Shown here in pieces: positions 3,992 to 25,093 of a stretch of DNA of 64,000 nt. Below the pieces are notes generated by a model. That model was not told the DNA's origin. It searched no databases and saw nothing but the letters and a program-made list of their open reading frames with translations. Numbering within the stretch: the stretch's first letter is position 1; the number at the start of each line of letters is the position of its first letter. This stretch comes from Candidatus Nomurabacteria bacterium (GTDB lineage: Bacteria; Patescibacteriota; Patescibacteriia; HK-STAS-PATE-3). Where the stretch lies: NCBI GenBank assembly GCA_023898465.1, contig CP060223.1, positions 64,001 to 128,000 on the forward strand. Direction: 5' to 3'. A program made the translations under genes and the position numbers.

Positions 3992-6900
3992 TTGAAGATT
4001 AGCCAAGGAAAGAAAAAACAGGACTGGAAGGCTAGAAAAAAGAGAAAGTCAGGAAGATTCAGCCTTTTCAGTAATTTTTTTCAGAAAAATCGACGTCGTC
4101 AGACTAAACTGGAGCAACCCCACAGCTTAAAGCCTGGGGCTGTTTTATTGCAGCTTTTTAGACAGACGCGACGTTACCGGGCTCAACAGCTTGTCTCTAT
4201 TAGTCTGGCAATTGTTTTGCTCTTGGCTTTTGGTTTTCAAATGTTTGTTGTAGCGGCGCCACCTGAAACTGCTTTTACGACGGTAAGCTCCGATGCTGAA
4301 TGGAATATGGGCACGCTTGAAGATGTCACTGTGAATAGTGGCAGCATTGAAATTTCTGGAGACGGGGGAGCTGGCTGGTTGAGTGGATGGCAAAATAGGC
4401 AGCCGGTCACAATTACCAATACCGGTTCAGCGCAGACAAACTATCAAGTAAGAGTTGATGTTACCTATGATGCCAAAATGCAGGCGGATTTTGATGATTT
4501 ACGTTTTGCAAAAGCTGATGGCACTGAGCTGGACTTTTGGCTGCAATCTAAAGTTGATTCTACCTCAGCCGTTGTTTGGGTGGAGGTGGATTCTTTGGCT
4601 GGATCGGGCGATACGGTGATCTACATGTATTACAATAATTCTGGCGCTTCGAGTACATCGGACGGAGCGGCGACTTTTCCTCTCTTTGATGATTTCAATG
4701 ATGCAAGTATAGACACGGGTAAATGGGTAGAAGTTGATCCCAGCTCAAAAATTGATGAATCAGCCGGATCGCTCCGTTTCCTTTACGGGTCTGGTAGTGG
4801 AGCATGGAATGCAAGTGTGTATGGCGTCACTTCTTTTACGCGGGCGGATTGGAGTTTTGAGTGGGATCAAACTTGGATTAGCGATTATAATCCATATGAC
4901 GCCTTCATGTTTGGCTGGAAAGATGATGGCGGAGCGGTAAGTTACACAAATCTCGTGTATGGCTACTACAATAGTGGGTCGGGTTTTTGTACAACGAACT
5001 GTACAGGGAATGTGTATGAAGATGGGAATAGTCGGGGAAATGCTGGAGTATGGGACAAAGATGTAACGTATAATCTGCGGGTTCGCATGCGAAGTGCTGG
5101 CGGAGCTTACTATGAAAAGAGTACAAACAATGGGGGATCATGGACAACCGATTATACAAGCACCTATTCAACTGAGGCTTCTCTTCATCCAGCCTGGATG
5201 CATTACGCAGGTGATTATTTGATTGATAATGTGCGGGTACGTAAATGGATGGCAAGCGAGCCAAGTCTTGTCTTTGGCACCGAAGAATCCGCCCTCCAAT
5301 CACCTGGGACCTACACCTCCCACAACCTTGATCTCCAGTATATCTACCAATGGGGAGACTGTGCCTCTGGCTGTAATGACTCTTCCACTGCCTTCACTAC
5401 CAACATCACGGTTCCCAGTAACACCTCAGTCCAGTTTGAACTCCGCCATTCAGCTGACGGCTCCACCAACTGGTCATCATGGACATCCCTGGCTACCTAC
5501 ACTACCTCTGGTACCAAAACGCTCACCCGAGGAGACCTAGTGGGTCTCATTGGTGATATCTTCAATCGTTATGTCCAAACTCGGATTACGCTGACCTCCT
5601 CAGATGGGAGTAGTAATCCTTCCATCGCTGACTACCGCTACGACTACACCAGAGAAACTGATCCGCCCAGTAATCCCAACACGCAGAATGGCTATGCCTC
5701 GAATGGAGGAGCAGCCATTACTTCAGGTAATTGGTACAACCATCCAGCTCCCTACTTCACCTGGAGTGGCGCCAGTGACACTGATGCTGGTATGTCCGGA
5801 GGCTACTCCGGCTACTGGGTCTGCTTTGGCACCTCATCCTGTGAACCTACCTCTGGTACCTTTGTGTCTTCCGCTGCCTACACGGCTGGGAGTCTCACTA
5901 CCAATACGACCTACTACCTCCGCATCAAAGCGAGAGATGCTGCCGGCAATGTGGCCACCTCAGCCTACGATGCCTTTACCTACAAATACGACGCCACCCC
6001 ACCAGCCAATCCCTCTGGTATCCTGCCTGATCCGGCTGGCTTTACCAATGTGAATGACTTTGACTTCACCTGGAATACCGGCTCCGATGCGGGTGGCTCT
6101 GGTATTGCTGAATACTGCTACAAGACCGGAGAAGATGGCTATGTCGAAACCTGTACCGCCTCCACCTCAGTCACGGGTATTACTGCCTACCAAGAAGGAG
6201 CCAATATCTTTTACGTGAGAAGTAAAGATATCGCTGGCAACCTCCCCACCTTCTACACCCAGGTCTCTTACTACTACTCTGCCAATGCGCCTTCACCACC
6301 GCAAGGACTCGAGGTGGACCCCACAGAGAACACGGCCAACTCCTTTACCTTTACCTGGCTACTTCCCGCCTCCTACTCCAATCCGATTGCCACCTACCAT
6401 TACTCGGTAAATGCCTTACCCACGGCAAGTAACACGACCGCAACGACCAACCTCAGTGTCGGTCCTGGTGCCTTTGCCACCCAACAAGGCACGAACATCT
6501 TCTATGTCGTCGCCAAAGACACCGCTGGCAACGTGGAATGGGACTCCTACGCTGCAGTTGAGTTCACCGCCAATACCACTGCTCCAGGTATTCCAACTGG
6601 TGTGACCCTGACAGACTCATCCATTCGGGCCCAGAACAAGTATTCCCTCACCCTCACCTGGGATGCTCCAGAGAACGAAGGCTCAGGTATTGATCACTAC
6701 GTCATTGACCGCTCAACCACTATCGGCTGCAGTGATGGTTCAGGTACCTGGGTCCAGCATGCCACCACCACCGCTGAAGGCTACTTTGATCCGAATCTTT
6801 CCAATACCACGACCTACTGCTACCGCGTGAAGGCAGCCGACAATGCCGGAGCCCAATCCGCCACCTCCTCTATTGTCTCCATGCGTCCAGAAGGCCGCTT

Positions 6901-7528
6901 CACTGAACCTCCAGAACTCATTGGCTCCCCAGGGGTTGAAGCCTACATCCAGTCGGCGACCGTCGAGTGGCTGACTGATCGCGAAGGCAGCTCCTTTGTG
7001 GAGTTTGGCACGTCCTCAGATACTCTTGATCGTGTCATGGGCCAAGACGACTTTGTGACCAGTCACAGTGTCACCCTCCTCGACCTTGATCCGGCTACTA
7101 CCTACTACTATCGTACGAAATACACTGACCAAGACAGTAATACCGGCTATTCTTCAGTCCTCTCCTTTACCACTGCTGATGCACCGTCAGCTCCGACCAA
7201 CCTCAGTGTGGACCCAGAGAGTAATACCCGAAACTCCTTTACCTTTGCCTGGGATCCCCCCAGTGATGCTGGAGTCACTATTCAAGGCTACTTCTACAGT
7301 GTGAATGATGTCCCCACCAGTACGAATACCTCCTTCACTGCTCAGCAAGAGCTTGGCCCTGGCGCATATGCCACGAGACAAGGGAGAACGTCTTCTACCT
7401 TGTCGCTATTGATGAAGGAACAATGTGAACTACGACAACTATGCTGCAGTCGCTTTCACTGCCACGACCCCCGCTCCTGCCATCCCCACCGGCCTCATCA
7501 TTACCGATGCCTCGAACCGAGAAACTGA
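3992..7528 (+). CDS. giant surface protein paralog 1, N-terminal 1178-aa part (basic tail + TM anchor, DUF2341-like, ConA/glucanase-like head, FN3 array); frame lost near 7381-7420
   Basis: A TTG start is preceded by the RBS aaaggggga. A K/R-rich N-terminus is followed by a hydrophobic helix. The motif W.NRQPVTI...DFDDLRFAKADGTELDFWLQ...VWVEV...IYMYYNN matches DUF2341, and FDDFND..IDTGKW opens a ConA-like domain, followed by FN3 repeats. The ORF stops after two 1-nt deletions (GGGG->GGG at ~7384, loss of c at ~7419) relative to the intact copy at 22700. Confidence 0.7.
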   Translation: MKISQGKKKQDWKARKKRKSGRFSLFSNFFQKNRRRQTKLEQPHSLKPGAVLLQLFRQTRRYRAQQLVSISLAIVLLLAFGFQMFVVAAPPETAFTTVSSDAEWNMGTLEDVTVNSGSIEISGDGGAGWLSGWQNRQPVTITNTGSAQTNYQVRVDVTYDAKMQADFDDLRFAKADGTELDFWLQSKVDSTSAVVWVEVDSLAGSGDTVIYMYYNNSGASSTSDGAATFPLFDDFNDASIDTGKWVEVDPSSKIDESAGSLRFLYGSGSGAWNASVYGVTSFTRADWSFEWDQTWISDYNPYDAFMFGWKDDGGAVSYTNLVYGYYNSGSGFCTTNCTGNVYEDGNSRGNAGVWDKDVTYNLRVRMRSAGGAYYEKSTNNGGSWTTDYTSTYSTEASLHPAWMHYAGDYLIDNVRVRKWMASEPSLVFGTEESALQSPGTYTSHNLDLQYIYQWGDCASGCNDSSTAFTTNITVPSNTSVQFELRHSADGSTNWSSWTSLATYTTSGTKTLTRGDLVGLIGDIFNRYVQTRITLTSSDGSSNPSIADYRYDYTRETDPPSNPNTQNGYASNGGAAITSGNWYNHPAPYFTWSGASDTDAGMSGGYSGYWVCFGTSSCEPTSGTFVSSAAYTAGSLTTNTTYYLRIKARDAAGNVATSAYDAFTYKYDATPPANPSGILPDPAGFTNVNDFDFTWNTGSDAGGSGIAEYCYKTGEDGYVETCTASTSVTGITAYQEGANIFYVRSKDIAGNLPTFYTQVSYYYSANAPSPPQGLEVDPTENTANSFTFTWLLPASYSNPIATYHYSVNALPTASNTTATTNLSVGPGAFATQQGTNIFYVVAKDTAGNVEWDSYAAVEFTANTTAPGIPTGVTLTDSSIRAQNKYSLTLTWDAPENEGSGIDHYVIDRSTTIGCSDGSGTWVQHATTTAEGYFDPNLSNTTTYCYRVKAADNAGAQSATSSIVSMRPEGRFTEPPELIGSPGVEAYIQSATVEWLTDREGSSFVEFGTSSDTLDRVMGQDDFVTSHSVTLLDLDPATTYYYRTKYTDQDSNTGYSSVLSFTTADAPSAPTNLSVDPESNTRNSFTFAWDPPSDAGVTIQGYFYSVNDVPTSTNTSFTAQQELGPGAYATRQGRTSSTLSLLMKEQCELRQLCCSRFHCHDPRSCHPHRPHHYRCLEPRN

Positions 7529-8999
7529 AGACTACTCTATTGCCTTGAAGTGGAAAGCAGTGACCACTGAACAAGCCGGTAGCCTGGAAGATGACGCGGT
7601 GACCTACGAGATTCTCCGTTCCACTGATGGAGACAGCTTCTCCACCGTGGCCAACATTACCTCGACTGGCTACCTGGACGTCGATCTCGACAATACGACG
7701 GAGTATTACTACCAAGTGAAAGCCAAAGACTCCGCCGGCGCTGCTTCAGCTCCTTCGACCACCGTCTCAGATATCCCTGAGGGGAGATATACCACTCCAC
7801 CGGAGATTACCAAAGCCCCCCACGTTACTCCTTCCAGCTTCTCAGCCAAGGTAGAGTGGAGTACTGGACGGCCAACTACCTCCTTTGTTCAATTTGGCAC
7901 TAACCCCGCCTCATTAACAGAAGAGCAGGGTACTTCAAACCTTATCGCTGACCACGAGGTAACCATTGAGGGTTTGCAGCCTGAAACTACGTATTCATAT
8001 AGAGTAAAAAGTGTTGATGTGGATGGAAACATTTCACATTCAAGTGTTGCTACATTTACCACCCAGGCTGCTCCACGTGTTTCAAATGTAGGCATCAGCG
8101 ACGTACGTTTATTTGATGCTCTCATTAGCTGGGAAACAAATAAAGCGACCACAACTTCACTTGAGTATGGCACCACCACGAACTATGGTACAACGGTGAG
8201 CGATGCAACAGGATCAACTACCACATCTCATTTATATAAGTTAGAGAATTTGCAAGATGACACGCTCTACCATCTTCGTTTCCGTGGCGTTGATGCAGAA
8301 GGGACGCAAGTTAGTTCCGACGACTACACCTTCACCACCCTGACTTTCCCCCGGGTCGAGAACATCACCTGGGCTAATCAAGCCGAAGGCGAGACCGAAG
8401 TGCAATGGACTACGAATGTCCCCACCACCTCCCAAGTGGAATATTACAACGAAACTACTCCAGCCAAGACCCAAGGTAATACGGTCCTGACCACGGAACA
8501 CTCCGTCCTCCTCTTTGGCCTCGACGATGCCACCATTTACCAATTCCAAGTCCGAGGCACTGACCAATTTGGCTACGAAGCCATCTCAGATGAGCAAGAG
8601 TTCCGTACCCTGGAAGATACTACCCCTCCAGTCGTGAGTAATGTGCAGGTAGAGTCCAATACCATTGGCTCAGGTGAGCTCTCTCGTGTGCAGATCATTG
8701 TCCGCTGGACCACCAATGAGCCTACCTCTTCTCAAGTCCGCTTTGGTGAAGGAAATAACCTTTCCTCTGAATCAGATGTGAACCCAGAGTTAGTCTATGA
8801 TCACCTCCTTGTCGTCTCAGACCTAGAACCAGCGAGAACCTACAATATTCAAGCTATTGCCGTCGACAAAGCAGGGAATAGTACTGACTCTGATACCTAC
8901 CGAGTGCTTACCACCCGTCGGAGAGATTCCTTCCTCCAACTGGTCATTGGCAACCTGGAAGACACCTTTGCCTGGTTTACTAATATTGGAGGACTCTGA
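7425..8999 (+). CDS. C-terminal continuation of paralog 1 (FN3 repeats + conserved C-terminal tail) in shifted frame
   Basis: It translates as ...YDNYAAVAFTATTPAPAIPTGLIITDASNRETE..., collinear with residues ~1190-1712 of the intact paralog 4. It ends in ...RRRDSFLQLVIGNLEDTFAWFTNIGGL. Confidence 0.65.
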   Translation: MNYDNYAAVAFTATTPAPAIPTGLIITDASNRETEDYSIALKWKAVTTEQAGSLEDDAVTYEILRSTDGDSFSTVANITSTGYLDVDLDNTTEYYYQVKAKDSAGAASAPSTTVSDIPEGRYTTPPEITKAPHVTPSSFSAKVEWSTGRPTTSFVQFGTNPASLTEEQGTSNLIADHEVTIEGLQPETTYSYRVKSVDVDGNISHSSVATFTTQAAPRVSNVGISDVRLFDALISWETNKATTTSLEYGTTTNYGTTVSDATGSTTTSHLYKLENLQDDTLYHLRFRGVDAEGTQVSSDDYTFTTLTFPRVENITWANQAEGETEVQWTTNVPTTSQVEYYNETTPAKTQGNTVLTTEHSVLLFGLDDATIYQFQVRGTDQFGYEAISDEQEFRTLEDTTPPVVSNVQVESNTIGSGELSRVQIIVRWTTNEPTSSQVRFGEGNNLSSESDVNPELVYDHLLVVSDLEPARTYNIQAIAVDKAGNSTDSDTYRVLTTRRRDSFLQLVIGNLEDTFAWFTNIGGL

Positions 9000-11900
9000 T
9001 GGCACGGACGATGAAACATTGGCATAGAGGTGCAAAGAAGCGACCAGCTCATCCAGCAACACGTACGAGCTATCGTCGAAAATATCGCCAGCAAGTAGGT
9101 ATCTCGATTGCGGTGTTTTCACTTTTCCTACTCACTATCTCGTCATTTATCCAGGCAGCCGCACCAGAAGCCACCTACGTTGAAGTAACTTCAGACGCGG
9201 ACTGGAACATGGGCACCTTGAGCGATGTTACGGTGAATAGTGGGAGTATTGAAATCTCTGGAGATGGGGGAGCAAACTGGATAGCAGAATCAGGATGGCA
9301 ATTGCGGCAAAAGATTACCTTTGATGCTTCTACGCTCACGACATCTCTGAGTTATTTTCCCATCATGGTGCATATTGATAATACAAATACGGATTTTTGG
9401 GCAGGAGCGGCAAGTCGTGACGAAGTACGCTTCGGTGATAGCGATGGTGCCGTTTTAGATTTTCATTTTGAAAAATTTGATCATACTGCCGATGATGCCA
9501 TTGCCTGGGTTGAAGTGCCAACGCTAACTAATGATTCTTCTGATCACATATATCTCTATTATGGACACGCTTCACCAGCTAACGGTGAAGATGAAGCGGG
9601 CACCTATGATAATGACGGAAATTTTGTTGGCGTTTGGCACATGGCAGAGACAAGTGGTACGTCATATGATTCTACAAGTAATAACGTTGACCTCACTCCT
9701 CGCAATGCACCAACCCAAGATGAAACTGGCAAGGTAAATGGAGGAGATGGCTTCACAGGAAACGGCGACGCGCTCCATAATCAAACGTCAAGTATCGTAT
9801 TTGGAAATAGTATTACTCTAGAAGGTTGGTTTAAGCGAACCGGATCCGGTACTGGGTCCGGAAGAATTTTAGAATTTTCCCTGGATGGCGACGCTGATAG
9901 CCACGCCTTAGCCGTCGATTCAGACGGTTCACTTCGAGCCTGGGTGCAATGTACGACTGGTCGAGTTGGCAGCGCTGATGATCCTACTGTATATGGTACA
10001 GGAACTTGGTATTACTTCGCTTACACCTATGACGGATCGATTGGTCGACTTTATGTGAATGGTGTTCAGAAAAAAACTGCAAGTGGATCTTGTGCAAATT
10101 TAGATGATGCAGGGGACACTATTCTTGGAGCAATTTCTGACCAGAGCGGTGCTTACTCCCTGCCGCAACATGAATTTGATGGATATTTAGATGAACATCG
10201 TGCTTCTGATGTAGCTCGATCAGCTGATTGGATTAAAGCTGCTTATCTCTCCGAAACCGACACCCTCATCTCGACCTGGGGAAGTGAAGAATCCGCCCTC
10301 CAATCACCTGGCACTTACACCTCCCACAACCTTGATCTCCAGTATATCTACCAATGGGGAGACTGTGCCTCTGGCTGTAATGACTCTTCCACTGCCTTCA
10401 CTACCAACATCACGGTTCCCAGTAACACCTCAGTTCAGTTTGAACTCCGCCATTCAGCTGACGGCTCCACCAACTGGTCATCATGGACATCCCTGGCCAC
10501 CTACACCTCCTCTGGTACCAAAACGCTCACCCGAGGAGAGATGGTCACCCTCGTAGGCGATATCTTCAATCGTTATGTCCAAACCAGAATTACCCTCAGC
10601 TCCTCAGATGGCAGTAGTAATCCTTCCATCGCTGACTACCGCTACGACTACACCAGAGAAACTGATCCCCCCAGTAATCCCAACACCCAGAATGGCTATG
10701 CCTCGAATGGAGGAGCAGCCATTACTTCAGGTAATTGGTACAACCATCCTGCTCCCTACTTCACCTGGAGTGGAGCCAGTGATACTGATGCTGGTATGTC
10801 CGGAGGCTACTCCGGCTACTGGGTCTGCTTTGGCACCTCATCCTGTGAACCTACCTCTGGTACCTTTGTGTCTTCCGCTGCCTACACGGCTGGGAGTCTC
10901 ACTACCAATACGACCTACTACCTCCGCATCAAAGCGAGAGATGCTGCCGGCAATGTGGCCACCTCAGCCTACGATGCCTTTACCTACAAATACGACGCCA
11001 CCCCACCAGCCAATCCCTCTGGTATCCTGCCTGATCCGGCTGGCTTTACCAATGTGAATGACTTTGACTTCACCTGGAATACCGGCTCCGATGCGGGTGG
11101 CTCTGGTATTGCTGAATACTGCTACAAGACCGGAGAAGACGGCTATGTCGAAACCTGTACCGCCTCCACCTCAGTCACGGGTATTACTGCCTACCAAGAA
11201 GGAGCCAATATCTTTTACGTGAGAAGTAAAGATATCGCTGGCAACCTTCCCACCTTCTACACCCAGGTGTCCTACTACTACTCGGCCAATGCTCCTTCAC
11301 CACCGCAGGGACTTGCGGTTGATCCGACCGAGAACACGGCGAACTCCTTTACCTTTACCTGGCTTGCTCCCGCCTCCTACTCCAACCCGATTGCCACCTA
11401 CCATTACTCGGTGAATGCCTTACCCACGGCAAGTAACACGACCGCAACGACCAACCTCAGTGTCGGTCCTGGTGCCTTTGCCACCCAACAAGGCACGAAC
11501 ATCTTCTATGTCGTCGCCAAAGACACCGCTGGCAACGTGGAATGGGACTCCTACGCTGCAGTTGAGTTCACCGCCAATACCACTGCTCCAGGTATTCCAA
11601 CTGGTGTGACCCTGACCGACTCATCCATTCGGGCCCAGAACAAGTATTCCCTCACCCTCACCTGGGATGCTCCAGAGAACGAAGGCTCAGGTATTGATCA
11701 CTACGTCATTGACCGCTCAACCACTATCGGCTGCAGTGATGGTTCAGGTACCTGGGTCCAGCATGCCACCACCACCGCTGAAGGCTACTTTGATCCGAAT
11801 CTTTCCAATACCACCACCTACTGCTACCGCGTGAAGGCAGCCGACAATGCCGGAGCCCAATCCGCCACCTCCTCTATTGTCTCCATGCGTCCAGAAGGCC

Positions 11901-12268
11901 GCTTCACTGAACCCCCAGAACTCATTGGTTCCCCAGGGGTTGAAGCCTACATCCAGTCGGCGACTATTGAATGGTTAACAGATCGTGAGGCGAATTCATT
12001 TGTTGAATTCGGAGTAGCGTCTGACACTTTGGACCGAATTATGGGACAGGACGATTTCGTTTCCTCGCATACAGTACAATTATTGGATCTAGAGCCTGCC
12101 ACAACATATTATTATCGAACCAAGCATACTGATCAGGATAGCAATACTGGTTACTCTACAATTTTGTCATTTTCAACGGCGGACGCCCTCTGCTCCAACA
12201 AATTTGACCGTGAGCCCAGAAAGCAACACACGCAATTCATTTACTTTTTCATGGGATGCGCCAAGTGA
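8999..12268 (+). CDS. giant surface protein paralog 2, N-terminal part (basic tail + TM anchor, DUF2341-like, Laminin_G_3-like head, FN3 array); frameshifted near 12185
   Basis: An ATG overlaps the upstream stop (cTGATGg). Both the DUF2341 motif (...DEVRFGDSDGAVLDFHFEKFD...IAWVEVP...IYLYYGH) and the LamG_3 motif (VWHM..TSG..DST..N...GTWYYFAYTYDG..GRLYVNGV) are present. From ~10290 the sequence is near-identical at nt level to 5280-7200, 15470-17400 and 21300-22700. Confidence 0.7.
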   Translation: MARTMKHWHRGAKKRPAHPATRTSYRRKYRQQVGISIAVFSLFLLTISSFIQAAAPEATYVEVTSDADWNMGTLSDVTVNSGSIEISGDGGANWIAESGWQLRQKITFDASTLTTSLSYFPIMVHIDNTNTDFWAGAASRDEVRFGDSDGAVLDFHFEKFDHTADDAIAWVEVPTLTNDSSDHIYLYYGHASPANGEDEAGTYDNDGNFVGVWHMAETSGTSYDSTSNNVDLTPRNAPTQDETGKVNGGDGFTGNGDALHNQTSSIVFGNSITLEGWFKRTGSGTGSGRILEFSLDGDADSHALAVDSDGSLRAWVQCTTGRVGSADDPTVYGTGTWYYFAYTYDGSIGRLYVNGVQKKTASGSCANLDDAGDTILGAISDQSGAYSLPQHEFDGYLDEHRASDVARSADWIKAAYLSETDTLISTWGSEESALQSPGTYTSHNLDLQYIYQWGDCASGCNDSSTAFTTNITVPSNTSVQFELRHSADGSTNWSSWTSLATYTSSGTKTLTRGEMVTLVGDIFNRYVQTRITLSSSDGSSNPSIADYRYDYTRETDPPSNPNTQNGYASNGGAAITSGNWYNHPAPYFTWSGASDTDAGMSGGYSGYWVCFGTSSCEPTSGTFVSSAAYTAGSLTTNTTYYLRIKARDAAGNVATSAYDAFTYKYDATPPANPSGILPDPAGFTNVNDFDFTWNTGSDAGGSGIAEYCYKTGEDGYVETCTASTSVTGITAYQEGANIFYVRSKDIAGNLPTFYTQVSYYYSANAPSPPQGLAVDPTENTANSFTFTWLAPASYSNPIATYHYSVNALPTASNTTATTNLSVGPGAFATQQGTNIFYVVAKDTAGNVEWDSYAAVEFTANTTAPGIPTGVTLTDSSIRAQNKYSLTLTWDAPENEGSGIDHYVIDRSTTIGCSDGSGTWVQHATTTAEGYFDPNLSNTTTYCYRVKAADNAGAQSATSSIVSMRPEGRFTEPPELIGSPGVEAYIQSATIEWLTDREANSFVEFGVASDTLDRIMGQDDFVSSHTVQLLDLEPATTYYYRTKHTDQDSNTGYSTILSFSTADALCSNKFDREPRKQHTQFIYFFMGCAK

Positions 12269-12279
12269 TGAAGGAGTAG

Positions 12280-13563: not shown

Positions 13564-13632
13564 CCAATTTGGCTACGAAGCCATCTCAGATGAGCAAGAG
13601 TTCCGTACCCTGGAAGATACTACCCCTCAGTC

Positions 13633-14036: not shown

Positions 14037-14065
14037 TTGACTAAATCAAGGAAAAATTTTACAAT
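14037..14065 (+). promoter_or_regulatory. sigma70-like promoter for paralog 3 (TTGACT-N17-TACAAT)
   Basis: The sequence is ttgact aaatcaaggaaaaattt tacaat. It lies 50 nt upstream of the TTG start context at 14112. Confidence 0.45.
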
Positions 14066-14423
14066 ATAACAACAAAAAATAATTTTAATTTGCGAAATTA
14101 AGGATTTTGGCTTGAAGATTAGCCAAAAAATTTTTTTCGGGGAAGAGAAAAAGAGCCAAGGCTCAAATATCTCAAGCACGAAAAAAACAAGACTTCAAAG
14201 CTATCTAACTGGTAGCATGCTTCATAGAAAAGAAAAAAACCAGGCAACTCTGCGCGTGGTTTTTTTGTGCTGACAAAAAAATATCGCCTGCAGTCAGTCA
14301 TCTCGGTAATGCTTGCCATTACTTTAGGTTTCGGCATTTTTTGCAGTTTAATGCAATTGCCGCTCCACCAGAAGCCACTTACATTGAAGTAACTTCAGAC
14401 GCAGACTGGAACATGGGCACCTT

Positions 14424-17400
14424 TTGAGCGATGTTACAGTGAATAGCGGGAGTATTGAGATCTCCGGAGATGGGGGAGCGAACTGGATAGCAGAGTCTGG
14501 CTGGCAATTCAGACAGCAATTGACCTTTGATGCATCTTCATTAAGTGCTCCAGTCGCCAATATGCCGATTATGGTGCATATCAGTGCATCCAACACTGAC
14601 TACTGGGGCGAAGTGACCTCAAGAGATGAAACCCGTTTCGGCGATAGCGATGGTACGGCTTTAGACTTTCATTTTGAGAAATTTGATGATGCCAATGATG
14701 ATGCGATTGCCTGGGTAGAAGTGCCTCAGGTTGATAATGCTGATACCGACTCCATCTATCTTTACTATGGAAATGATGCGGCAACGAATGGTGAAGATGG
14801 GGCGGGCACCTATGATAATGATGGGAATTTTCAGGGTGTATGGCACATGAATAATGCAACCAGCACCACAATCAGCGATAGTACTGGACATGGTTATACC
14901 GGTACAAAGGGTGCGAGCACGGCTGCCCCAACTCAGGTCAACGGACAAATTGGTTATGCACAATCTTTCGACGGCGGTGACTATATTGATTTTGGCAACG
15001 TTCTTAATCCAGGAAGTAATGATTGGACTGTAGAAATTTGGTTTAAAACAACTTCAAATGGGAGTCCTAGTTCACGAATTCTCTATAATAAAGAGAATTT
15101 GTACGAGGCTGCGGCAGCCGGAAGTTCTTACCACGACTACGCCTGGCAGCCGCACTGGGCTTGGGATGGAGGAACTGCTTTTTCCGTTACAAATAATGTT
15201 TGGCATTTGTCTGGGACGACATACGATAAGTCCAAGCAACGTTTATATAAGAATGGTGTCCTTGTGTACAACCGGGACCAGGGTGGCGTCATGGGGACAA
15301 CCACTTCACGCTTACAATTTGGCGCCCGAGGAGATACTGGGCACTCATCTTTTTATATTGGAGAGATTGATGAAGTGCGCATGTCGAGTACGGCTCGGAG
15401 CGCAGACTGGTTAGCCTTAGCGCATCTCTCCGAAACCGACACCCTCATCTCGACCTGGGGAAGTGAAGAATCCGCCCTCCAATCACCTGGCACTTACACC
15501 TCCCACAACCTTGATCTCCAGTATATCTACCAATGGGGAGACTGTGCCTCTGGCTGTAATGACTCTTCCACTGCCTTCACTACCAACATCACGGTTCCCA
15601 GTAACACCTCAGTTCAGTTTGAACTCCGCCATTCAGCTGACGGCTCCACCAACTGGTCATCATGGACATCCCTGGCCACCTACACCTCCTCTGGTACCAA
15701 AACGCTCACCCGAGGAGAGATGGTCACCCTCGTAGGCGATATCTTCAATCGTTATGTCCAAACCAGAATTACCCTCAGCTCCTCAGATGGCAGTAGTAAT
15801 CCTTCCATCGCTGACTACCGCTACGACTACACCAGAGAAACTGATCCGCCCAGTAATCCCAACACCCAGAATGGCTATGCCTCGAATGGAGGAGCAGCCA
15901 TTACTTCAGGTAATTGGTACAACCATCCAGCTCCCTACTTCACCTGGAGTGGCGCCAGTGATACTGATGCTGGTATGTCCGGAGGCTACTCCGGCTACTG
16001 GGTCTGCTTTGGCACCTCATCCTGTGAACCTACCTCTGGTACCTTTGTGTCTTCCGCTGCCTACACGGCTGGGAGTCTCACTACCAATACGACCTACTAC
16101 CTCCGCATCAAAGCGAGAGATGCTGCCGGCAATGTGGCCACCTCAGCCTACGATGCCTTTACCTACAAATACGACGCCACCCCACCAGCCAATCCCTCTG
16201 GTATCCTGCCTGATCCGGCTGGCTTTACCAATGTGAATGACTTTGACTTCACCTGGAATACCGGCTCCGATGCGGGTGGCTCTGGTATTGCTGAATACTG
16301 CTACAAGACCGGAGAAGACGGCTATGTCGAAACCTGTACCGCCTCCACCTCAGTCACGGGTATTACTGCCTACCAAGAAGGAGCCAATATCTTTTACGTG
16401 AGAAGTAAAGATATCGCTGGCAACCTTCCCACCTTCTACACTCAGGTGTCCTACTACTACTCGGCCAATGCCCCTTCACCACCCCAGGGACTTGCGGTTG
16501 ATCCTACCGAGAACACGGCGAACTCCTTTACCTTTACCTGGCTACTTCCCGCCTCCTACTCCAACCCGATTGCCACCTACCACTACTCGGTGAATGCCTT
16601 ACCCACGGCAAGTAACACGACCGCAACGACCAACCTCAGTGTCGGTCCTGGTGCCTTTGCCACCCAACAAGGCACGAACATCTTCTATGTCGTCGCCAAA
16701 GACACGGCTGGCAACGTGGAATGGGACTCCTACGCTGCAGTTGAGTTCACTGCCAATACCACTGCTCCAGGTATTCCAACTGGTGTGACCCTGACCGACT
16801 CATCCATTCGGGCCCAGAACAAGTATTCCCTCACCCTCACCTGGGATGCTCCAGAGAACGAAGGCTCAGGTATTGATCACTACGTCATTGACCGCTCAAC
16901 CACTATCGGCTGCAGTGATGGTTCAGGTACCTGGGTCCAGCATGCCACCACCACCGCTGAAGGCTACTTTGATCCGAATCTTTCCAATACCACCACCTAC
17001 TGCTACCGCGTGAAGGCAGCCGACAATGCCGGAGCCCAATCCGCCACCTCCTCTATTGTCTCCATGCGTCCAGAAGGCCGCTTCACTGAACCCCCAGAAC
17101 TCATTGGTTCCCCAGGGGTTGAAGCCTACATCCAGTCGGCCACCGTCGAGTGGCTGACTGATCGCGAAGGCAGCTCCTTTGTGGAGTTTGGCACGTCCTC
17201 AGATACTCTTGATCGTGTCATGGGCCAAGATGACTTTGTGACCAGTCACAGCGTCACCCTCCTCGACCTTGATCCGGCTACTACCTACTACTATCGTACG
17301 AAATACACTGACCAAGACAGTAATACCGGCTATTCTTCAGTCCTCTCCTTTACCACTGCTGATGCACCGTCAGCTCCGACCAACCTCAGTGTGGACCCAG

Positions 17401-17597
17401 AGAGTAATACCCAGAAACTCCTTTACCTTTGCCTGGGATCCCCCAGTGATGCTGGAGTCACTATTCAAGGCTACTTCTACAGTGTGAATGATGTCCCCCA
17501 CCAGTACGAATACCTCCCTTCACTGCTCAGCAAGAGCTTGGCCCTGGCGCATATGCCACGAGACAAGGGAGAACGTCTTCTACCTTGTCGCTATTGA
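14424..17597 (+). CDS. giant surface protein paralog 3, main fragment (DUF2341-like, LamG_3-like head, FN3 array); N-terminal leader 14112-14424 disrupted, frame lost near 17413-17520
   Basis: Upstream, 14112 carries the same TTG-AAG-ATT-AGC-CAA start context as gene 1 but is broken at A/T homopolymers, and a tt insertion at ~14425 (ggcaccttTTgagcg) cuts the frame. The body contains DUF2341 and LamG_3 motifs. Its shared module is near-identical to paralogs 1, 2 and 4. Confidence 0.7.
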   Translation: MSDVTVNSGSIEISGDGGANWIAESGWQFRQQLTFDASSLSAPVANMPIMVHISASNTDYWGEVTSRDETRFGDSDGTALDFHFEKFDDANDDAIAWVEVPQVDNADTDSIYLYYGNDAATNGEDGAGTYDNDGNFQGVWHMNNATSTTISDSTGHGYTGTKGASTAAPTQVNGQIGYAQSFDGGDYIDFGNVLNPGSNDWTVEIWFKTTSNGSPSSRILYNKENLYEAAAAGSSYHDYAWQPHWAWDGGTAFSVTNNVWHLSGTTYDKSKQRLYKNGVLVYNRDQGGVMGTTTSRLQFGARGDTGHSSFYIGEIDEVRMSSTARSADWLALAHLSETDTLISTWGSEESALQSPGTYTSHNLDLQYIYQWGDCASGCNDSSTAFTTNITVPSNTSVQFELRHSADGSTNWSSWTSLATYTSSGTKTLTRGEMVTLVGDIFNRYVQTRITLSSSDGSSNPSIADYRYDYTRETDPPSNPNTQNGYASNGGAAITSGNWYNHPAPYFTWSGASDTDAGMSGGYSGYWVCFGTSSCEPTSGTFVSSAAYTAGSLTTNTTYYLRIKARDAAGNVATSAYDAFTYKYDATPPANPSGILPDPAGFTNVNDFDFTWNTGSDAGGSGIAEYCYKTGEDGYVETCTASTSVTGITAYQEGANIFYVRSKDIAGNLPTFYTQVSYYYSANAPSPPQGLAVDPTENTANSFTFTWLLPASYSNPIATYHYSVNALPTASNTTATTNLSVGPGAFATQQGTNIFYVVAKDTAGNVEWDSYAAVEFTANTTAPGIPTGVTLTDSSIRAQNKYSLTLTWDAPENEGSGIDHYVIDRSTTIGCSDGSGTWVQHATTTAEGYFDPNLSNTTTYCYRVKAADNAGAQSATSSIVSMRPEGRFTEPPELIGSPGVEAYIQSATVEWLTDREGSSFVEFGTSSDTLDRVMGQDDFVTSHSVTLLDLDPATTYYYRTKYTDQDSNTGYSSVLSFTTADAPSAPTNLSVDPESNTQKLLYLCLGSPSDAGVTIQGYFYSVNDVPHQYEYLPSLLSKSLALAHMPRDKGERLLPCRY

Positions 17598-18051
17598 TGA
17601 AGCGAACAATGTGAACTACGACAACTATGCTGCAGTCGCTTTCACTGCCACGACCCCTGCTCCTGCCATCCCCACCGGCCTCATCATTACCGATGCCTCG
17701 AACCGAGAAACTGAAGACTACTCTATTGCCTTGAAGTGGAAAGCAGTGACCACTGAACAAGCCGGTAGCCTGGAAGATGATGCGGTGACCTACGAGATTC
17801 TCCGTTCCACTGATGGAGACAGCTTCTCCACCGTGGCCAACATTACCTCGACTGGCTACCTGGATGTCGATCTCGACAATACGACGGAGTATTACTACCA
17901 AGTGAAAGCCAAAGACTCCGCCGGCGCTGCTTCAGCTCCTTCGACCACCGTCTCAGATATCCCTGAGGGAGATATACCACTCCACCGGAGATTACCAAAG
18001 CCCCCACGTTACTCCTTCCAGCTTCTCAGCCAAGGTAGAGTGGAGTACTGA
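17488..18051 (+). CDS. paralog 3 fragment (FN3 repeat) between frameshifts
   Basis: The portion from ~17570 on reads ENVFYLVAIDEANNVNYDNYAAVAFTATTPAPAIPTGLIITD..., collinear with the other copies. It is flanked by homopolymer indels (acccAgaaac, C6->C5, C insertions at 17495-17520, loss of g at ~17970). Confidence 0.5.
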   Translation: MMSPTSTNTSLHCSARAWPWRICHETRENVFYLVAIDEANNVNYDNYAAVAFTATTPAPAIPTGLIITDASNRETEDYSIALKWKAVTTEQAGSLEDDAVTYEILRSTDGDSFSTVANITSTGYLDVDLDNTTEYYYQVKAKDSAGAASAPSTTVSDIPEGDIPLHRRLPKPPRYSFQLLSQGRVEY

Positions 18052-18244
18052 CCGTGATGCTGATTCCCACGTAGAATATGGCAGCACCTCAGATCTCACT
18101 GAAGAGCAAGGGACGATTGATGAAACTGATGAACATAGCATCCAACTCGAAGGACTCCAACCAGAAACGACCTATTACTACCGTATTCGTTCACGTGACC
18201 AAGATGGCAATGTAGCCCTCTCGAGCATCACTACCTTTACTACC

Positions 18245-19180
18245 TTGGAGGCACCGAGGGTGTCGGATGTGGTCATTTCTGATATCAAACTTTACGATGC
18301 GCTTATTGCGTGGAAAACAAACAAGGCAACAACAACGGTTTTGGAATATGGTACGACTGAGCAATACGGCCAAAGTCTCGCAGATACTTCTGGGTCCCTT
18401 ACCACGAACCATATTGTGAAGCTTGATAGCTTAACCGATGATACACTGTATCATTTCCGTCCTACTGGTTTCGACGAGAGCGGGAATGCTCCAGAGAGTA
18501 GCGACTACACCTTCACCACCCTGACCTTCCCCCGGGTCGAGAACATCACCTGGGCTAATCAAGCCGAAGGCGAGACCGAAGTGCAATGGACTACCAATGT
18601 CCCCACCACCTCCCAAGTGGAATACTACAACGAAACTACTCCAGCCAAGACCCAAGGTAATACGGTCCTGACCACGGAACACTCCGTCCTTCTCTTTGGC
18701 CTCGACGATGCCACCATTTACCAATTCCAAGTCCGAGGCACTGACCAATTTGGCTACGAAGCCATCTCAGATGAGCAAGAGTTCCGTACCCTGGAAGATA
18801 CTACCCCCCCAGTCGTGAGTAATGTGCAGGTAGAGTCCAATACCATTGGCTCAGGTGAGCTCTCTCGTGTGCAGATCATTGTCCGCTGGACCACCAATGA
18901 GCCTACCTCTTCCCAAGTCCGCTTTGGTGAAGGAAATAACCTTTCCTCTGAATCAGATGTGAACCCAGAGTTAGTCTATGATCACCTCCTTGTCGTCTCA
19001 GACCTAGAACCAGCGAGAACCTACAATATTCAGGCTATTGCCGTTGACAAAGCAGGGAATAGTACTGACTCTGATACCTACCGAGTGCTTACCACCCGTC
19101 GGAGAGATTCCTTCCTCCAACTGGTCATTGGCAACCTGGAAGACACCTTTGCCTGGTTTACCAATATTGGGGGGTTGTGA
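18245..19180 (+). CDS. paralog 3 C-terminal fragment (FN3 repeats + conserved tail)
   Basis: The collinear in-frame region starts at about 18010 (after the stop ending ORF 17488..18051) and ends in ...RRRDSFLQLVIGNLEDTFAWFTNIGGL. Its stop overlaps the next start (gTGATGa). Confidence 0.6.
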   Translation: MEAPRVSDVVISDIKLYDALIAWKTNKATTTVLEYGTTEQYGQSLADTSGSLTTNHIVKLDSLTDDTLYHFRPTGFDESGNAPESSDYTFTTLTFPRVENITWANQAEGETEVQWTTNVPTTSQVEYYNETTPAKTQGNTVLTTEHSVLLFGLDDATIYQFQVRGTDQFGYEAISDEQEFRTLEDTTPPVVSNVQVESNTIGSGELSRVQIIVRWTTNEPTSSQVRFGEGNNLSSESDVNPELVYDHLLVVSDLEPARTYNIQAIAVDKAGNSTDSDTYRVLTTRRRDSFLQLVIGNLEDTFAWFTNIGGL

Positions 19181-22100
19181 TGAGTCGACGGATGCGACAT
19201 TTTAGCGTAGGACATAAAGGATTAACTCCGAGAGTAAGTCGGAAAAACTCACGTCATTCAAAATTATCACGATATAAGTCAAGATATCACGTTCAAGTTA
19301 TTCTCACCTTGACGGTTCTTGTTTTTGCTTCAGTGTTTGGGGTAGCTATTCCATACCTACAAGCGGTTCCAACAAATAATACCGAGACCTTTACGCTGAG
19401 TAGCGATTTTAGTGGAGGGGTATTAACTGATGTTGATGTGAGTAATGACGAAATTAAACTGTCTGGAGGAGCGGAAAATTGGTGGGACGCAAACTATCAA
19501 TATCGTCGACAACTTACGGTTACAAATGATTCTGCTGGAACTGCTGAAGTAGGCACAACAGCTACCATCAGCATTGATACTTCGGCGCTTGAGACAGCAG
19601 GGAAGTTGCGTTCAGATCGTAATGACTGGCGAGTAGTATATTGGAACGGCTCGAGTAATGAAGAGCTTGATCGTGTCTACGAAAGTACTAGTTCGACTGT
19701 TTTTGCTATTCAGGCCACTATCGCGGGAAGTGGTGGATCAAGTAGTGATTATTATGTGTACTACGGGTACTCAAGTGAGTCCTCAACTCCGCCAAGTACG
19801 GTGGGTAACGTAAAGACGGTACTCAGCATGCATACAACCGCTAACCAAGTTTTAACAAGTGGAGTTACAAACCTTGGTATTGCTACTGACGGTGACTACG
19901 TTTACATGTCAAATGGGTCTCAGTTATCAAAACTTAACCTTGATGGGTCATTAGTTGGCACTAAGACAGTGAGTATTGGTGGTGCAAATAGAGGACTCGG
20001 TTTTGCTGATGGACGGGTTATTGGTCGAGACTTAAGTAATAATCTTTATGCGTATGACTGGGATAGCTCAACATTATCTCCATTGAGTATTCCAGGTGGA
20101 CATCCACTTTTATCAGGTCAATCCTGGATGAATCATAATCTTGTGACTGATTCGAGCGATCGGATTGGTACCGTGCAGTATGCATCTGGCGGTATGATTC
20201 TGCGTCGCTACACTATTAGTGGTAACACGCTCACTTGGTTAGATGATATCACCCTAGGTGGAACCTATCACTCAGTAGATAATCATGGCTTTACTATGAG
20301 CAACGACTATCTCGTAATGGTGAGTTATAGTGATGGATGGCGACGATGGAGCTTGCCTGATGGTACAGAGGAAGTTGACTTTGGGAATTTTGGCGGGACT
20401 GGTACAAATACTGAAACTCACCCTAGTGGGATGTCGAATCCAACTTTTATTGATTATAACTGGAAGACCGGGGAAATATATCTTGGTGACTATAGTTCAG
20501 CTGAGTATTTTCGATATGCTAATGAAGCTTTAGTTACTTCTCCTACTTTATCTGTTACTGATGGAGGTGAAGTTGGATCACTTACTCCTATTGGTACCTT
20601 TGCTTCAAATCAAACTGATACAGGGGATGACGCATTTATAAATCTTGCTCGCATCTTTGCCTGGGGGAGTGGTGGCGGTGATAGTGATACAGCATTTACC
20701 GCAAACGTAACGATGAGCGATCCTTCTCATTCGACACTTAGCTTTGAGCTACGTAGTGCTTCATCTATTGCTAATCTAGCGTCAGCAACATATTACTCAC
20801 TTGGCTCGCCAACGAGCTCTGGTGCATATACGCTGACCAAAGGACAGATGGATGCTTTAAATAGTGGAAGCGGGGTTTTACCCTCCAGTGTGAATAAGTA
20901 TTTTCAGTTACGCATTTCATTTACCTCAAGTGATGGCTTAGCCAACCCTTCAGTGCAGGATTTTGCTTTTCATTATCAGGAAGACAACGACGCCCCATCA
21001 CCACCATCGCCGGTTAACGGAGCTGGGTATGATGAAGAGGGTGGAGATGTCATCTCTCAAACTACCTGGTATAACTACCCAACTCCATACTTTACTTGGG
21101 ATGATGCCATAGATGGAGATTCTAGTATTGATGGGTATTATGTTTGCTTTGGAACTAGCAGTTGCGATCCAAGCGCTGGTTCCTATGTGACTACTGCAGA
21201 GTATACTGCAGTGTCGTTAACAAGCAATCAAAAGTATTCTTTACGAGTGAAGGCTCGTGACACTGCTGGGAATGTTTCTGCAACCTTCTCGGTATTTGAA
21301 TATTGGTACGACGCCACCCCACCAGCCAATCCCTCTGGTATCCTGCCTGATCCGGCTGGCTTTACCAATGTGAATGACTTTGACTTCACCTGGAATACCG
21401 GCTCCGATGCGGGTGGCTCTGGTATTGCTGAATACTGCTACAAGACCGGAGAAGATGGCTATGTCGAAACCTGTACCGCCTCCACCTCAGTCACGGGTAT
21501 TACTGCCTACCAAGAAGGAGCCAATATCTTTTACGTGAGAAGTAAAGATATCGCTGGCAACCTCCCCACCTTCTACACCCAGGTCTCTTACTACTACTCT
21601 GCCAATGCGCCTTCACCACCGCAAGGACTCGAGGTGGACCCCACAGAGAACACGGCCAACTCCTTTACCTTTACCTGGCTACTTCCCGCCTCCTACTCCA
21701 ATCCGATTGCCACCTACCATTACTCGGTAAATGCCTTACCCACGGCAAGTAACACGACCGCAACGACCAACCTCAGTGTCGGTCCTGGTGCCTTTGCCAC
21801 CCAACAAGGCACGAACATCTTCTATGTCGTCGCCAAAGACACGGCTGGCAACGTGGAATGGGACTCCTACGCTGCAGTTGAGTTCACCGCCAATACCACT
21901 GCTCCAGGTATTCCAACTGGTGTGACCCTGACAGACTCATCCATTCGGGCCCAGAACAAGTATTCCCTCACCCTCACCTGGGATGCTCCAGAGAACGAAG
22001 GCTCAGGTATTGATCACTACGTCATTGACCGCTCAACCACTATCGGCTGCAGTGATGGTTCAGGTACCTGGGTCCAGCATGCCACCACCACCGCTGAAGG

Positions 22101-25090: not shown

Positions 25091-25093
25091 AGT

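What the first reader, a model, noticed from the sequence alone, without database searches (positions are those of the whole stretch)
4250..21300. Hypervariable head modules on a conserved stalk
Between the DUF2341-like segment and the shared stalk, each paralog carries a different ~350-550-aa head. The heads sit at 4650-5280 (FDDFND..IDTGKW ConA-like), 9600-10280 and 14850-15460 (two distinct Laminin_G_3-like variants), and 19800-21300 (a repetitive module with DGDYVYMSNGS/LYAYDWDSS motifs). The junction into the shared sequence is sharp: identity begins at ...TWGSEESALQSPGTYTSHNLDLQYIYQWGDC. That is the expected signature of cassette exchange by recombination.
Basis: seen in the sequence. 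Interest (0 to 1): 0.5.

Follow-up and report, generated by a model that had tools for sequence, protein, structure and literature searches.

The report
Surface-protein paralogs with gene-converted shared stalk
An ultrasmall (Nomurabacteria) bacterium carries a tandem row of giant surface-protein genes with different, ancient binding modules, joined to a long scaffold that recombination between the copies has recently made almost identical; this is a clear but ordinary case of concerted evolution, not a head-swapping system.

Summary
Four tandem + strand paralogs (P1 3992-8999, P2 8999-13998, P3 ~14112-19180, P4 19177-24318), plus a fifth (P0) cut by the window edge, carry different modules after a DUF2341(-like) segment:
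- P1: ConA-like jelly roll.
- P2 and P3: two Laminin_G_3 variants.
- P4: beta-propeller-like module.

All four continue into a fibronectin-III-rich scaffold that is 98-100% identical at nucleotide level. The junctions are sharp to the nucleotide (10245/15424, 5282, 21307).

- The stalk itself is a mosaic, with at least 10 sharp breakpoints and old divergent islands.
- Synonymous divergence is saturated in heads and islands, and 0.02-0.13 in shared blocks.
- The heads are not hypervariable. P1's and P4's are conserved families, collinear with their stalks in other Patescibacteria.
- Upstream of the heads no exact match exceeds 21 nt, so the genome offers no 5' anchor for swapping heads.

Best reading: old paralogs whose scaffolds were recently homogenised by patchy gene conversion (concerted evolution).

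P1-P3 carry 1-nt frameshifts, mostly in mononucleotide runs, and only P4 is intact. I could not tell whether these are real or sequencing errors.

This is a new member of a known kind, of modest interest.

The parts
42..3854 (+). P0: C-terminal 1270 aa of an upstream paralog whose N-terminus lies beyond the window edge. Its FN3 stalk has not been homogenised with the others.
   Evidence: Pfam fn3 and Pur_ac_phosph_N hits. Only 67% nt identity to P1-P4, and only over its last 600 nt. 54-55% aa identity to the Kelch-headed 2954-aa protein upstream of the P1 ortholog in L003/L010.
3992..5281 (+). P1 unique N-terminal part: basic tail plus hydrophobic anchor, N-domain, DUF2341 (4487-4729) and a ConA-like jelly-roll head (~4730-5281).
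   Evidence: Pfam DUF2341 E 1e-25. AF2 pLDDT 88.5. Foldseek hits to L-type lectins, CBM66 and GH16. Orthologs at 65-72% identity.
5282..8999 (+). P1 stalk, a mosaic. Shared with P2/P3 from 5282 and with all four from 5987. P1-specific island at 7867-8322. Shared again from 8323. Frame broken by 1-nt deletions at ~7384 and ~7418, giving ORFs 3992-7528 and 7425-8999.
8999..10244 (+). P2 unique N-terminal part: DUF2341 (~9419-9610) and a Laminin_G_3 head (~9785-10237). The start codon overlaps the P1 stop (TGATG).
   Evidence: Pfam hits. Junction at 10245. Start/stop overlap seen.
10245..13998 (+). P2 stalk. Identical to P3 from 10245. P2-specific old island at 11962-12468 (34-37% nt divergent, low C3). 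P2=P3 block up to 13082. Divergent at 13083-13319. Shared tail from 13320. Frameshifts at ~12184, ~13507, ~13547 and ~13628.
14112..15423 (+). P3 unique N-terminal part: DUF2341 (~14631-14819) and a second Laminin_G_3 variant (~14970-15413). The 5' 310 nt is split over three frames at A/T runs of 6-8 nt.
   Evidence: P2 versus P3 head: pS 0.57-0.93 (dS >= 1), with dN rising from 0.07 to about 1.
15424..19180 (+). P3 stalk. Identical to P2 from 15424 and to P1 from 15465. Carries at least 7 one-base indels (17412-17569, 17967, 18001). One of them (GGGG to GGG at 17569) is shared with P1 at 7384.
19177..20560 (+). P4 unique N-terminal part: DUF2341-like segment and a beta-propeller-like head (~19800-20560).
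   Evidence: No Pfam hit. Profile-profile alignment to the DUF2341 region. Weak AF2 model (pLDDT 60) with propeller matches. 45-58% aa identity to WWE3, other metagenomic proteins and an Elusimicrobia MAG.
20560..21306 (+). P4's own, unconverted version of the first stalk domains. It is homologous to 5285-5986 at 49% aa identity, with synonymous sites saturated and native-like codon usage.
21307..24318 (+). P4 stalk, in the only uninterrupted gene (1713 aa). Shared with all paralogs from 21307. Own island at 23133-23278. Equal to P2/P3 at 23279-23405. Divergent to 23641. Shared tail from 23642.
   Evidence: 100% identical to an NCBI protein annotated from a Candidatus Nomurabacteria MAG.
24368..26314 (+). 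ABC ATPase (24368-25090) and MacB_PCD/FtsX permease (25094-26314), immediately downstream of the array.
   Evidence: Pfam hits. The same gene pair follows a two-paralog array in L023.

Best explanation
The locus is a tandem array of old paralogous genes for giant cell-surface proteins in a Candidatus Nomurabacteria (Patescibacteria/CPR) genome.

Architecture. Each protein has:
- an N-terminal basic tail and a hydrophobic anchor or signal;
- a small N-domain and a DUF2341(-like) domain;
- one variable ligand-binding module (ConA-like jelly roll, Laminin_G_3 or beta-propeller);
- about 1,200 residues of FN3/Ig-like domains, ending in a conserved C-terminal motif.

The different heads were already attached to their stalks in the ancestors shared with other Patescibacteria.

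Mechanism. In this genome, repeated homology-driven, non-reciprocal recombination between the neighbouring copies has overwritten most of the stalk with one C3-rich sequence version. This is intragenomic gene conversion, possibly together with unequal crossing-over. The tracts stop where homology ends, which is the head/stalk boundary, or mostly at conserved proline-rich inter-domain linkers. They leave unconverted islands of the old divergence. The sharp junction is therefore a homology cliff at the edge of conversion tracts, not the footprint of a head being swapped in.

What is shown: the array, the domain content, the mosaic with sharp breakpoints, the bimodal synonymous divergence, the compositional contrast, the conservation of the heads elsewhere, and the lack of 5' homology.

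What is inferred: gene conversion as the molecular process; the P1 lineage as the likely donor of the shared version; and the function, a repertoire of lectin-like adhesins on a common scaffold for attachment to host cells or surfaces.
For: - Near-identity: 97.6-98.8% nt over 0.7-2.6 kb between copies, while the heads have no nt similarity.
- Breakpoints: ten junctions, each sharp to a few nt, max-chi2 46-364.
- Site patterns: the dominant pattern changes block by block, and all three two-by-two partitions occur (14|23, 12|34, 13|24), including a ~100-nt patch at 6242-6342 where P1=P4 and P2=P3.
- Divergence is bimodal: pS 0.78-1.2 (saturated) in heads and islands, against dS 0.02-0.13 with dN/dS 0-0.11 in shared blocks.
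- Composition: shared blocks have GC3 0.51-0.63 and C3 0.38-0.47. The unconverted homologous versions, the heads and P0 have GC3 0.32-0.48 and C3 0.15-0.34.
- Breakpoint positions: seven of ten lie at or within about 8 residues of a domain end or Pro-rich linker (YDATPPANP, TATTPAPAIPTG, RYTTPPEITK, TTLEAPxVS, TFTTLTFPR).
- Old head-stalk combinations: the P1 orthologs L013, P0023 and L010-12 are 62-72% identical across both head and stalk, with a P0 ortholog upstream. P4 versus WWE3 P0002 is 43% identical over 96% of the length.
- Arrays elsewhere have 64-75% nt stalk identity: WWE3 L002 and L023.
- The repeat is real. An independent short-read contig (L001) is 100% identical with no indel over 12,030 bp, and starts 34 nt before the P4 stop, where unique sequence begins.
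- The P1-lineage ortholog L013 is closer to the shared version than to the private versions: block A 67-68% versus 43%, block C 68-72% versus 59%.
- Literature: giant DUF2341/FN3 proteins in Patescibacteria have been proposed to act in adhesion or host interaction (PMC11809585).
Against: - Gene conversion is inferred from the pattern. No recombination intermediates or population variants were seen.
- The C-only enrichment at third positions (G3 unchanged, A3 also lower) does not look like GC-biased conversion, and it is not explained. A P1-lineage donor is only suggested: the ortholog in L003 shows a milder C3 rise in its stalk.
- No P4-type ortholog at a comparable evolutionary distance is available, so the direction of transfer cannot be polarised.
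- The 1-nt indels in P1-P3 could be real. In that case three of the four copies are pseudogenes, which 'a repertoire of working adhesins' does not account for.
- No binding function has been tested. With an N-terminal anchor, the 'heads' could lie near the membrane rather than at the tip.
Confidence: 0.78

Rival explanations
1. Cassette exchange. The stalk is a constant scaffold, and head modules are moved or replaced between copies by recombination at the junction. This would generate new head-stalk combinations as a variation mechanism.
For: - The head/stalk junctions are sharp.
- The variable module sits between two segments that are homologous in all paralogs, DUF2341(-like) upstream and the stalk downstream.
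- Over deep time the modules clearly are shuffled. The P1-type head occurs on FG-GAP/VCBS stalks (P0031-P0038). The P4-type propeller occurs on a different stalk (P0006) and in Elusimicrobia. The middle paralog of the WWE3 array carries yet another head.
Against: - No usable 5' homology now exists: the longest exact match upstream of the junction is 21 nt.
- Head and stalk are collinear in orthologs of P1 and P4.
- Most breakpoints lie inside the stalk and involve different partners.
- The heads have different folds, with saturated synonymous divergence.
- Arrays elsewhere show the same head diversity without stalk identity.
Confidence: 0.1
2. Assembly or polishing artefact. The near-identity, the frameshifts, or both would arise from collapsing or cross-polishing of repeats in a long-read MAG assembly.
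For: - The genome is a MAG on a single 1.08-Mb contig.
- P1-P3 carry many 1-nt indels, mostly in mononucleotide runs and clustered at 17412-17569. This is typical of residual long-read errors where short reads map ambiguously.
Against: - Polishing cannot turn sequence that differs at 30-50% of positions into identical sequence on one side of a single nucleotide.
- An independent short-read contig matches 12,030 bp with no mismatch or indel, and ends at the repeat edge.
- Contigs of three related genomes also stop inside or just after the P1-type head.
- Several indels lie in sequence unique to one paralog (the P3 5' end and P2 12184).
- One indel is shared by P1 and P3.
Confidence: 0.05
3. Recent whole-gene tandem duplication followed by ordinary divergence, with faster evolution of the heads.
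For: - The genes are tandem and in the same orientation, with overlapping stop/start codons.
- The P2 and P3 heads are homologous throughout, with dN rising towards the LamG domain.
Against: - Synonymous sites are saturated in heads and islands but nearly unchanged in shared blocks, with no gradient between them.
- The P1, P2/P3 and P4 heads are different folds.
- Site patterns are incompatible with a single tree.
Confidence: 0.02

Closest known systems
Helicobacter pylori bab paralogs (babA/babB/babC): intragenomic gene conversion between adhesin paralogs (PMC4552749)
   Same: - Paralogous surface-protein genes with near-identical regions and a divergent binding region.
- Chimeras formed by homologous recombination between loci.
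- Frameshifting at simple repeats puts some copies out of frame.
   Different: - The bab loci are dispersed, not tandem.
- The bab variable regions are versions of one domain, not different folds.
- bab phase variation uses CT dinucleotide repeats. Here the indels lie in mononucleotide runs (3-6 nt in the stalk, 6-8 nt at the P3 5' end) and are not verified.
- Population data show bab exchange directly. No such data exist here.
Yeast FLO adhesin family: ectopic recombination between cell-surface paralogs (PMC3512402)
   Same: Recombination among repeat-rich scaffold regions of paralogous adhesins gives chimeric alleles. An N-terminal lectin-like domain sits on a repetitive stalk.
   Different: The FLO genes are eukaryotic and subtelomeric, and their stalks are low-complexity Ser/Thr repeats rather than folded FN3 domains.
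Programmed cassette antigenic variation (Neisseria pilE/pilS, Mycoplasma genitalium MgPa/MgPar, Borrelia vlsE); from general knowledge, not tested against papers here
   Same: One intact copy (P4) lies next to several interrupted copies that share long identical sequence with it.
   Different: - The interrupted copies are full-length genes with their own starts.
- The variable parts are unrelated folds, not variants of one segment.
- There is no conserved sequence on the 5' side.
- No population variants are known.
Giant DUF2341/FN3 proteins of Patescibacteria (PMC11809585); DUF2341 has been annotated as a predicted component of type IV pili-like systems
   Same: Same phylum-level group, same domain types and the same proposed adhesion/host-interaction role. 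The WWE3 homologous array lies next to type IV pilus genes.
   Different: That paper describes single proteins of more than 4000 aa. It does not report tandem arrays, alternative heads or concerted evolution. In this window an ABC/MacB pair, not pilus genes, follows the array.
Leptospira LigA/LigB (identical N-terminal Ig-like repeats, then divergence); from general knowledge
   Same: Two paralogous multi-Ig-domain surface proteins share a long identical stretch that ends abruptly.
   Different: Lig is a two-gene case with a C-terminal variable part, and no multi-block mosaic is described.

Membership tests
Concerted evolution by intragenomic gene conversion among paralogs | Paralogs within one genome are far more similar over part of their length than over the rest, and more similar than to orthologs elsewhere. 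| tested here: met
   Shared blocks are 98-100% nt identical, while heads and islands differ at 30-70% of aligned positions. Orthologs L013 and P0023 are 59-72% aa identical to the shared blocks.
Concerted evolution by intragenomic gene conversion among paralogs | Abrupt tract boundaries and a mosaic in which different blocks support different groupings. | tested here: met
   Ten junctions sharp to a few nt. Block-wise changes of site pattern, with all three 2|2 partitions present.
Concerted evolution by intragenomic gene conversion among paralogs | Bimodal synonymous divergence: near zero in converted tracts, old elsewhere. | tested here: met
   dS 0.02-0.13 in shared blocks, against pS >= 0.57-1.2 in heads and islands.
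Concerted evolution by intragenomic gene conversion among paralogs | Homologous arrays in other lineages lack the homogenisation, which shows the paralogs are old. | tested here: met
   Stalks are 64-71% nt identical in the WWE3 array L002 and 74% in L023.
Programmed cassette-type antigenic/adhesin variation (pilE/pilS-like) | One expression site plus silent, incomplete donor cassettes. | tested here: inconclusive
   Only P4 is uninterrupted, and P1-P3 have 1-nt indels. However, P1-P3 are full-length with their own starts, and the indels may be sequencing errors.
Programmed cassette-type antigenic/adhesin variation (pilE/pilS-like) | The variable segment is flanked on both sides by sequence shared between donor and recipient. 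| tested here: not met
   The 3' side is shared. On the 5' side the longest exact match is 10-21 nt.
Programmed cassette-type antigenic/adhesin variation (pilE/pilS-like) | Alternative variants are seen within a population or over time. | not testable with these tools
   No reads are available. No close relative was found in genome or JGI metagenome scans using exact 8-residue peptide patterns taken from P4.
Diversity-generating retroelement target | A template repeat with adenine-specific mismatches to the variable region, and a nearby reverse transcriptase. | tested here: not met
   The heads have no other nt match on either strand of the 64-kb window. No RT appeared among the ORFs scanned, but not every ORF was scanned.
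Polymorphic toxin / Rhs-CDI type (constant trunk, variable tip, orphan cassettes) | A variable C-terminal toxin domain after a demarcation motif, followed by an immunity gene. | tested here: not met
   The variable part is N-terminal and lectin-like or propeller-like. The C-terminus is the most conserved block, and consecutive genes overlap or abut with no small immunity ORF between them.
DUF2341 (PF10102) plus ConA-like/LamG surface proteins | A Pfam hit above the gathering score. | tested here: met
   P1 90.3 bits, P2 50.7 and P3 53.5, against a cut-off of 23.4. Laminin_G_3: 67.2 and 55.5, against 27.6. P4 has no Pfam hit and aligns only profile-to-profile.

The most novel reading that the evidence does not exclude
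The array could be a recombination-based adhesin-switching system of an episymbiotic ultrasmall bacterium. Under this reading:
- the 3'-most intact gene (P4, next to the MacB-type ABC pair) is the expressed copy;
- the frameshifted upstream copies are archives of alternative binding domains with different folds;
- the near-identical stalk is maintained as the substrate for single crossovers or conversions. Such events would delete intervening units or repair frames, and so place another head in an intact reading frame.

If true, whole ligand-binding domains would be switched, rather than epitopes.
Probability: 0.08. Interest if true: 0.65.

Novelty: new member of a known kind. Interest (0 to 1): 0.33.

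Why it matters
Patescibacteria/CPR bacteria are thought to live attached to other cells, and how they recognise hosts is largely unknown.

This locus shows that one such genome keeps several giant surface proteins with distinct lectin-like or propeller modules on a common FN3 scaffold. Homologous recombination still works efficiently between its copies: the scaffold is rewritten domain by domain while the binding modules stay intact.

The locus gives concrete candidates for host-binding proteins and a clean natural example of module-wise gene conversion.

It also carries a practical warning. Such arrays break short-read assemblies, as seen in the contigs of the same organism and of three relatives, so they will be under-reported in MAG surveys.

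The principle itself, concerted evolution of surface-protein paralogs, is well known.

Tried and rejected
- Exact-protein look-ups gave nothing on record. I tried P4, its NCBI twin P0001, and two small ORFs from the broken P3 5' end, hoping to find them in the independent short-read assembly. The frameshifts therefore could not be verified.
- Genome (GTDB) and JGI metagenome scans with P4 as a single protein found no close relative.
- A nine-sequence stalk alignment was too divergent to seed a scan.
- GC-biased gene conversion as the cause of the GC3 rise: rejected as sufficient. Only C3 rises, G3 does not, and A3 falls, which implies A-to-C changes.
- Horizontal acquisition of the shared stalk: not supported. 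The ortholog in L003 shows a milder C3 rise in its stalk, and the P1-lineage orthologs match the shared version at the same identity as the head.
- DGR-type diversification: no template repeat was found.
- Promoter/terminator scan: the number of sites is not above the shuffle expectation. Only weak candidates lie upstream of P1 (3914-3942) and P3 (14037-14065).
- The self-similarity survey of 80 related loci cannot detect >98% identical multi-kb repeats, because short-read contigs break there.

Full report
**1. What is there**

The first 24.3 kb of the window holds five + strand genes of one family.
- P0 (..42-3854) has its N-terminus beyond the window edge.
- P1 runs 3992-8999, P2 8999-13998 and P3 ~14112-19180.
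- P4 (19177-24318) is an uninterrupted 1713-aa ORF.
- An ABC ATPase (24368-25090) and a MacB_PCD/FtsX permease (25094-26314) follow.

P4 is 100% identical to an NCBI protein from a 1.08-Mb contig of a Candidatus Nomurabacteria MAG. P1-P3 are annotated there as truncated proteins of 1178, 1085 and 1052 aa. P1/P2 and P3/P4 overlap stop-to-start (TGATG). A non-coding gap of ~110 nt separates P2 from P3.

**2. Check of the observation**

Domains:
- Pfam gives DUF2341 in P1-P3 and Laminin_G_3 in P2 and P3.
- All five proteins, P0 included, have many fn3 and Pur_ac_phosph_N-type domains.
- The P1 segment after DUF2341 has no Pfam hit. It folds with high confidence (pLDDT 88.5) into a ConA-like lectin/glucanase jelly roll, and Foldseek finds Emp47p, VIP36, CBM66 and GH16.
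- The P4 module is modelled poorly overall (pLDDT 60, but 70-93 for residues 160-330). It matches beta-propellers, best by target coverage to 5-bladed ones. I call it propeller-like only.
- P4's DUF2341-like segment is seen only by profile-profile alignment.

Shared sequence. Self-BLAST and a four-way alignment show 97.6-98.8% nt identity downstream of the heads. The junctions are abrupt:

| Junction | Position | Columns differing, left | Columns differing, right |
|---|---|---|---|
| P2=P3 begins | 10245/15424 | 56% | 0.2% |
| P1 joins | 5282 | 70% | 2% |
| P4 joins | 21307 (=5987) | 45% | 0 of 305 |

The stated head sizes are too large, and the word 'conserved' hides internal divergent blocks.

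**3. The stalk is itself a mosaic**

Counting site patterns in 50-column bins gives this order:

| Block | Pattern |
|---|---|
| A | P4 alone divergent |
| B | All four equal, with a ~100-nt patch at 6242-6342 where P1=P4 and P2=P3 |
| C (11962-12468) | P2 alone divergent |
| D | All equal |
| E (from 23133 in P4, from 7867 in P1) | P4 divergent, then P1 divergent, while P2=P3 (=P4 from 23279) |
| F | All four different |
| G (last ~670 nt) | All equal |

There are ten change-points with max-chi2 of 46-364, each located to a few nucleotides. Seven of them lie at domain ends or proline-rich linkers.

Synonymous divergence is bimodal.
- It is saturated in heads and islands (pS 0.57-1.2).
- In shared blocks dS is 0.02-0.13, with dN/dS of 0-0.11.

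Composition differs as well.
- Shared blocks have GC3 0.51-0.63 and C3 0.38-0.47.
- The unconverted versions of the same blocks, the heads and P0 have GC3 0.32-0.48 and C3 0.15-0.34.

**4. Is it real?**

A short-read (Logan) contig from SRR12358676 is identical to window 24285-36314 over 12,030 bp, with no mismatch or indel. It begins 34 nt before the P4 stop, where sequence unique to P4 starts. So the repeat exists in independent reads, and the assembly is accurate outside it.

P1-P3 contain 1-nt indels relative to P4, mostly in mononucleotide runs.
- The P3 5' end is split over three frames at A/T runs of 6-8 nt.
- Some indels lie in sequence unique to one copy.
- One indel (GGGG to GGG) is shared by P1 and P3.

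I could not decide whether these indels are real pseudogenising mutations or residual long-read errors (searches found nothing).

**5. Relatives**

- P4 is collinear with a WWE3 (Katanobacteria) protein at 43% identity over 96% of its length, and the head is the best conserved part.
- That WWE3 contig carries three tandem paralogs: one Kelch-headed, one DUF2341-headed with yet another module, and one P4-like. Type IV pilus genes lie next to them. Their stalks are only 64-71% nt identical.
- The P4-type module also occurs on a different stalk (P0006) and in an Elusimicrobia MAG at 58% identity.
- The P1 head has many relatives at 45-72% identity, some on FG-GAP/VCBS stalks.
- Three related genomes in one JGI metagenome (L010-L012) have a Kelch-headed P0 ortholog followed by a P1 ortholog. 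All three contigs stop inside the P1-like gene.
- L013 holds a complete single P1-type gene with a uniform 59-72% identity across head and stalk. It is closer to the shared version than to the private versions of blocks A and C.
- L023 has two tandem paralogs with 74% nt stalk identity, followed by the same ABC/MacB pair.

**6. Explanation**

The head diversity and the array are ancestral. What is special to this genome is the recent homogenisation of the scaffold. The pattern meets every criterion of concerted evolution by intragenomic gene conversion, possibly with unequal crossing-over. Tracts end where homology ends or at conserved linkers.

Head exchange in the present genome lacks a 5' anchor, because the longest exact match upstream is 21 nt. 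It is also contradicted by the head-stalk collinearity in orthologs. No DGR-type template exists in the window.

The proposed function is lectin-like adhesins on a common scaffold. It is inferred from the domain types and from the literature on Patescibacteria giant proteins. It has not been shown.

**7. Comparison and verdict**

The closest described cases are gene conversion among H. pylori bab adhesin paralogs and ectopic recombination among yeast FLO adhesins. This locus is a new member of that known kind in a CPR bacterium. It is tidy and instructive, but not surprising.

Two points remain open: the cause of the C3-rich composition of the shared version, and whether the frameshifts are real. 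If the frameshifts are real, a low-probability switching model stays possible.

Noticed in passing
window 32799-43107: A run of + strand ORFs of about 390-590 aa with GC 0.55-0.60 and GC3 0.66-0.74, against about 0.43-0.49 GC in neighbouring genes. None of the four I scanned has a Pfam hit, and several have signal- or lipoprotein-like N-termini. Only weak pairwise similarity exists among them. This looks like a compositionally foreign island.
   Followed up: partly
window 24368-26314; L023 14462-16512: An ABC ATPase plus MacB_PCD/FtsX permease pair lies directly downstream of the paralog array, both here and in an unrelated metagenomic contig. This suggests a functional link, perhaps in export, anchoring or processing. 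The WWE3 array instead abuts type IV pilus genes.
   Followed up: partly
window 7384 and 17569: P1 and P3 share the same 1-nt deletion (GGGG to GGG) at homologous positions, while P4 has GGGG. Either a real frameshift was copied by gene conversion, or it is a recurrent consensus error.
   Followed up: partly
window 14130-14420: The P3 5' end contains six A or T runs of 6-8 nt and is split over three reading frames. The P3 start region shares a 21-nt exact match with the P1 start region (3986-4006 = 14106-14126).
   Followed up: partly
C-termini: window 8920-8996, 13920-13995, 19100-19177, 24240-24315, 3770-3851: A C-terminal motif (R/D-S-x-L-x-L-[IV]-I-x-N-L-E-x-T-F-x-W...) is conserved in all stalk homologs across Nomurabacteria, WWE3 and other metagenomic proteins. 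It could be a sorting or anchoring signal.
   Followed up: no
L010, L011, L012 (JGI 3300014208): Three co-occurring related genomes, 77-81% nt identical over 11 kb, share the synteny of a Kelch-headed giant protein followed by a P1-type gene. All three contigs terminate inside the P1-type gene, at P1 residues ~746, ~469 and ~400. This is consistent with repeated stalks there too.
   Followed up: partly
P0010-P0017: The P4 N-terminal DUF2341-like segment is 40-55% identical to a segment of ~1100-1400-aa proteins that also carry Laminin_G_3. Those proteins have a conserved N-terminus (…FVNKFGSGDSSYRDSTFWQ…) and look like phage tail or fibre-type proteins.
   Followed up: no
window 28991-29536: A 181-aa ORF matches Pfam Host_attach (PF10116) and baeRF_family12, about 4.7 kb downstream of the array.
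   Followed up: no
L013 199-5304 and 10639-11994: The single P1-type gene in this contig is flanked by five paralogous ORFs. Each ends in a PEP-utilizers mobile domain (PF00391).
   Followed up: no
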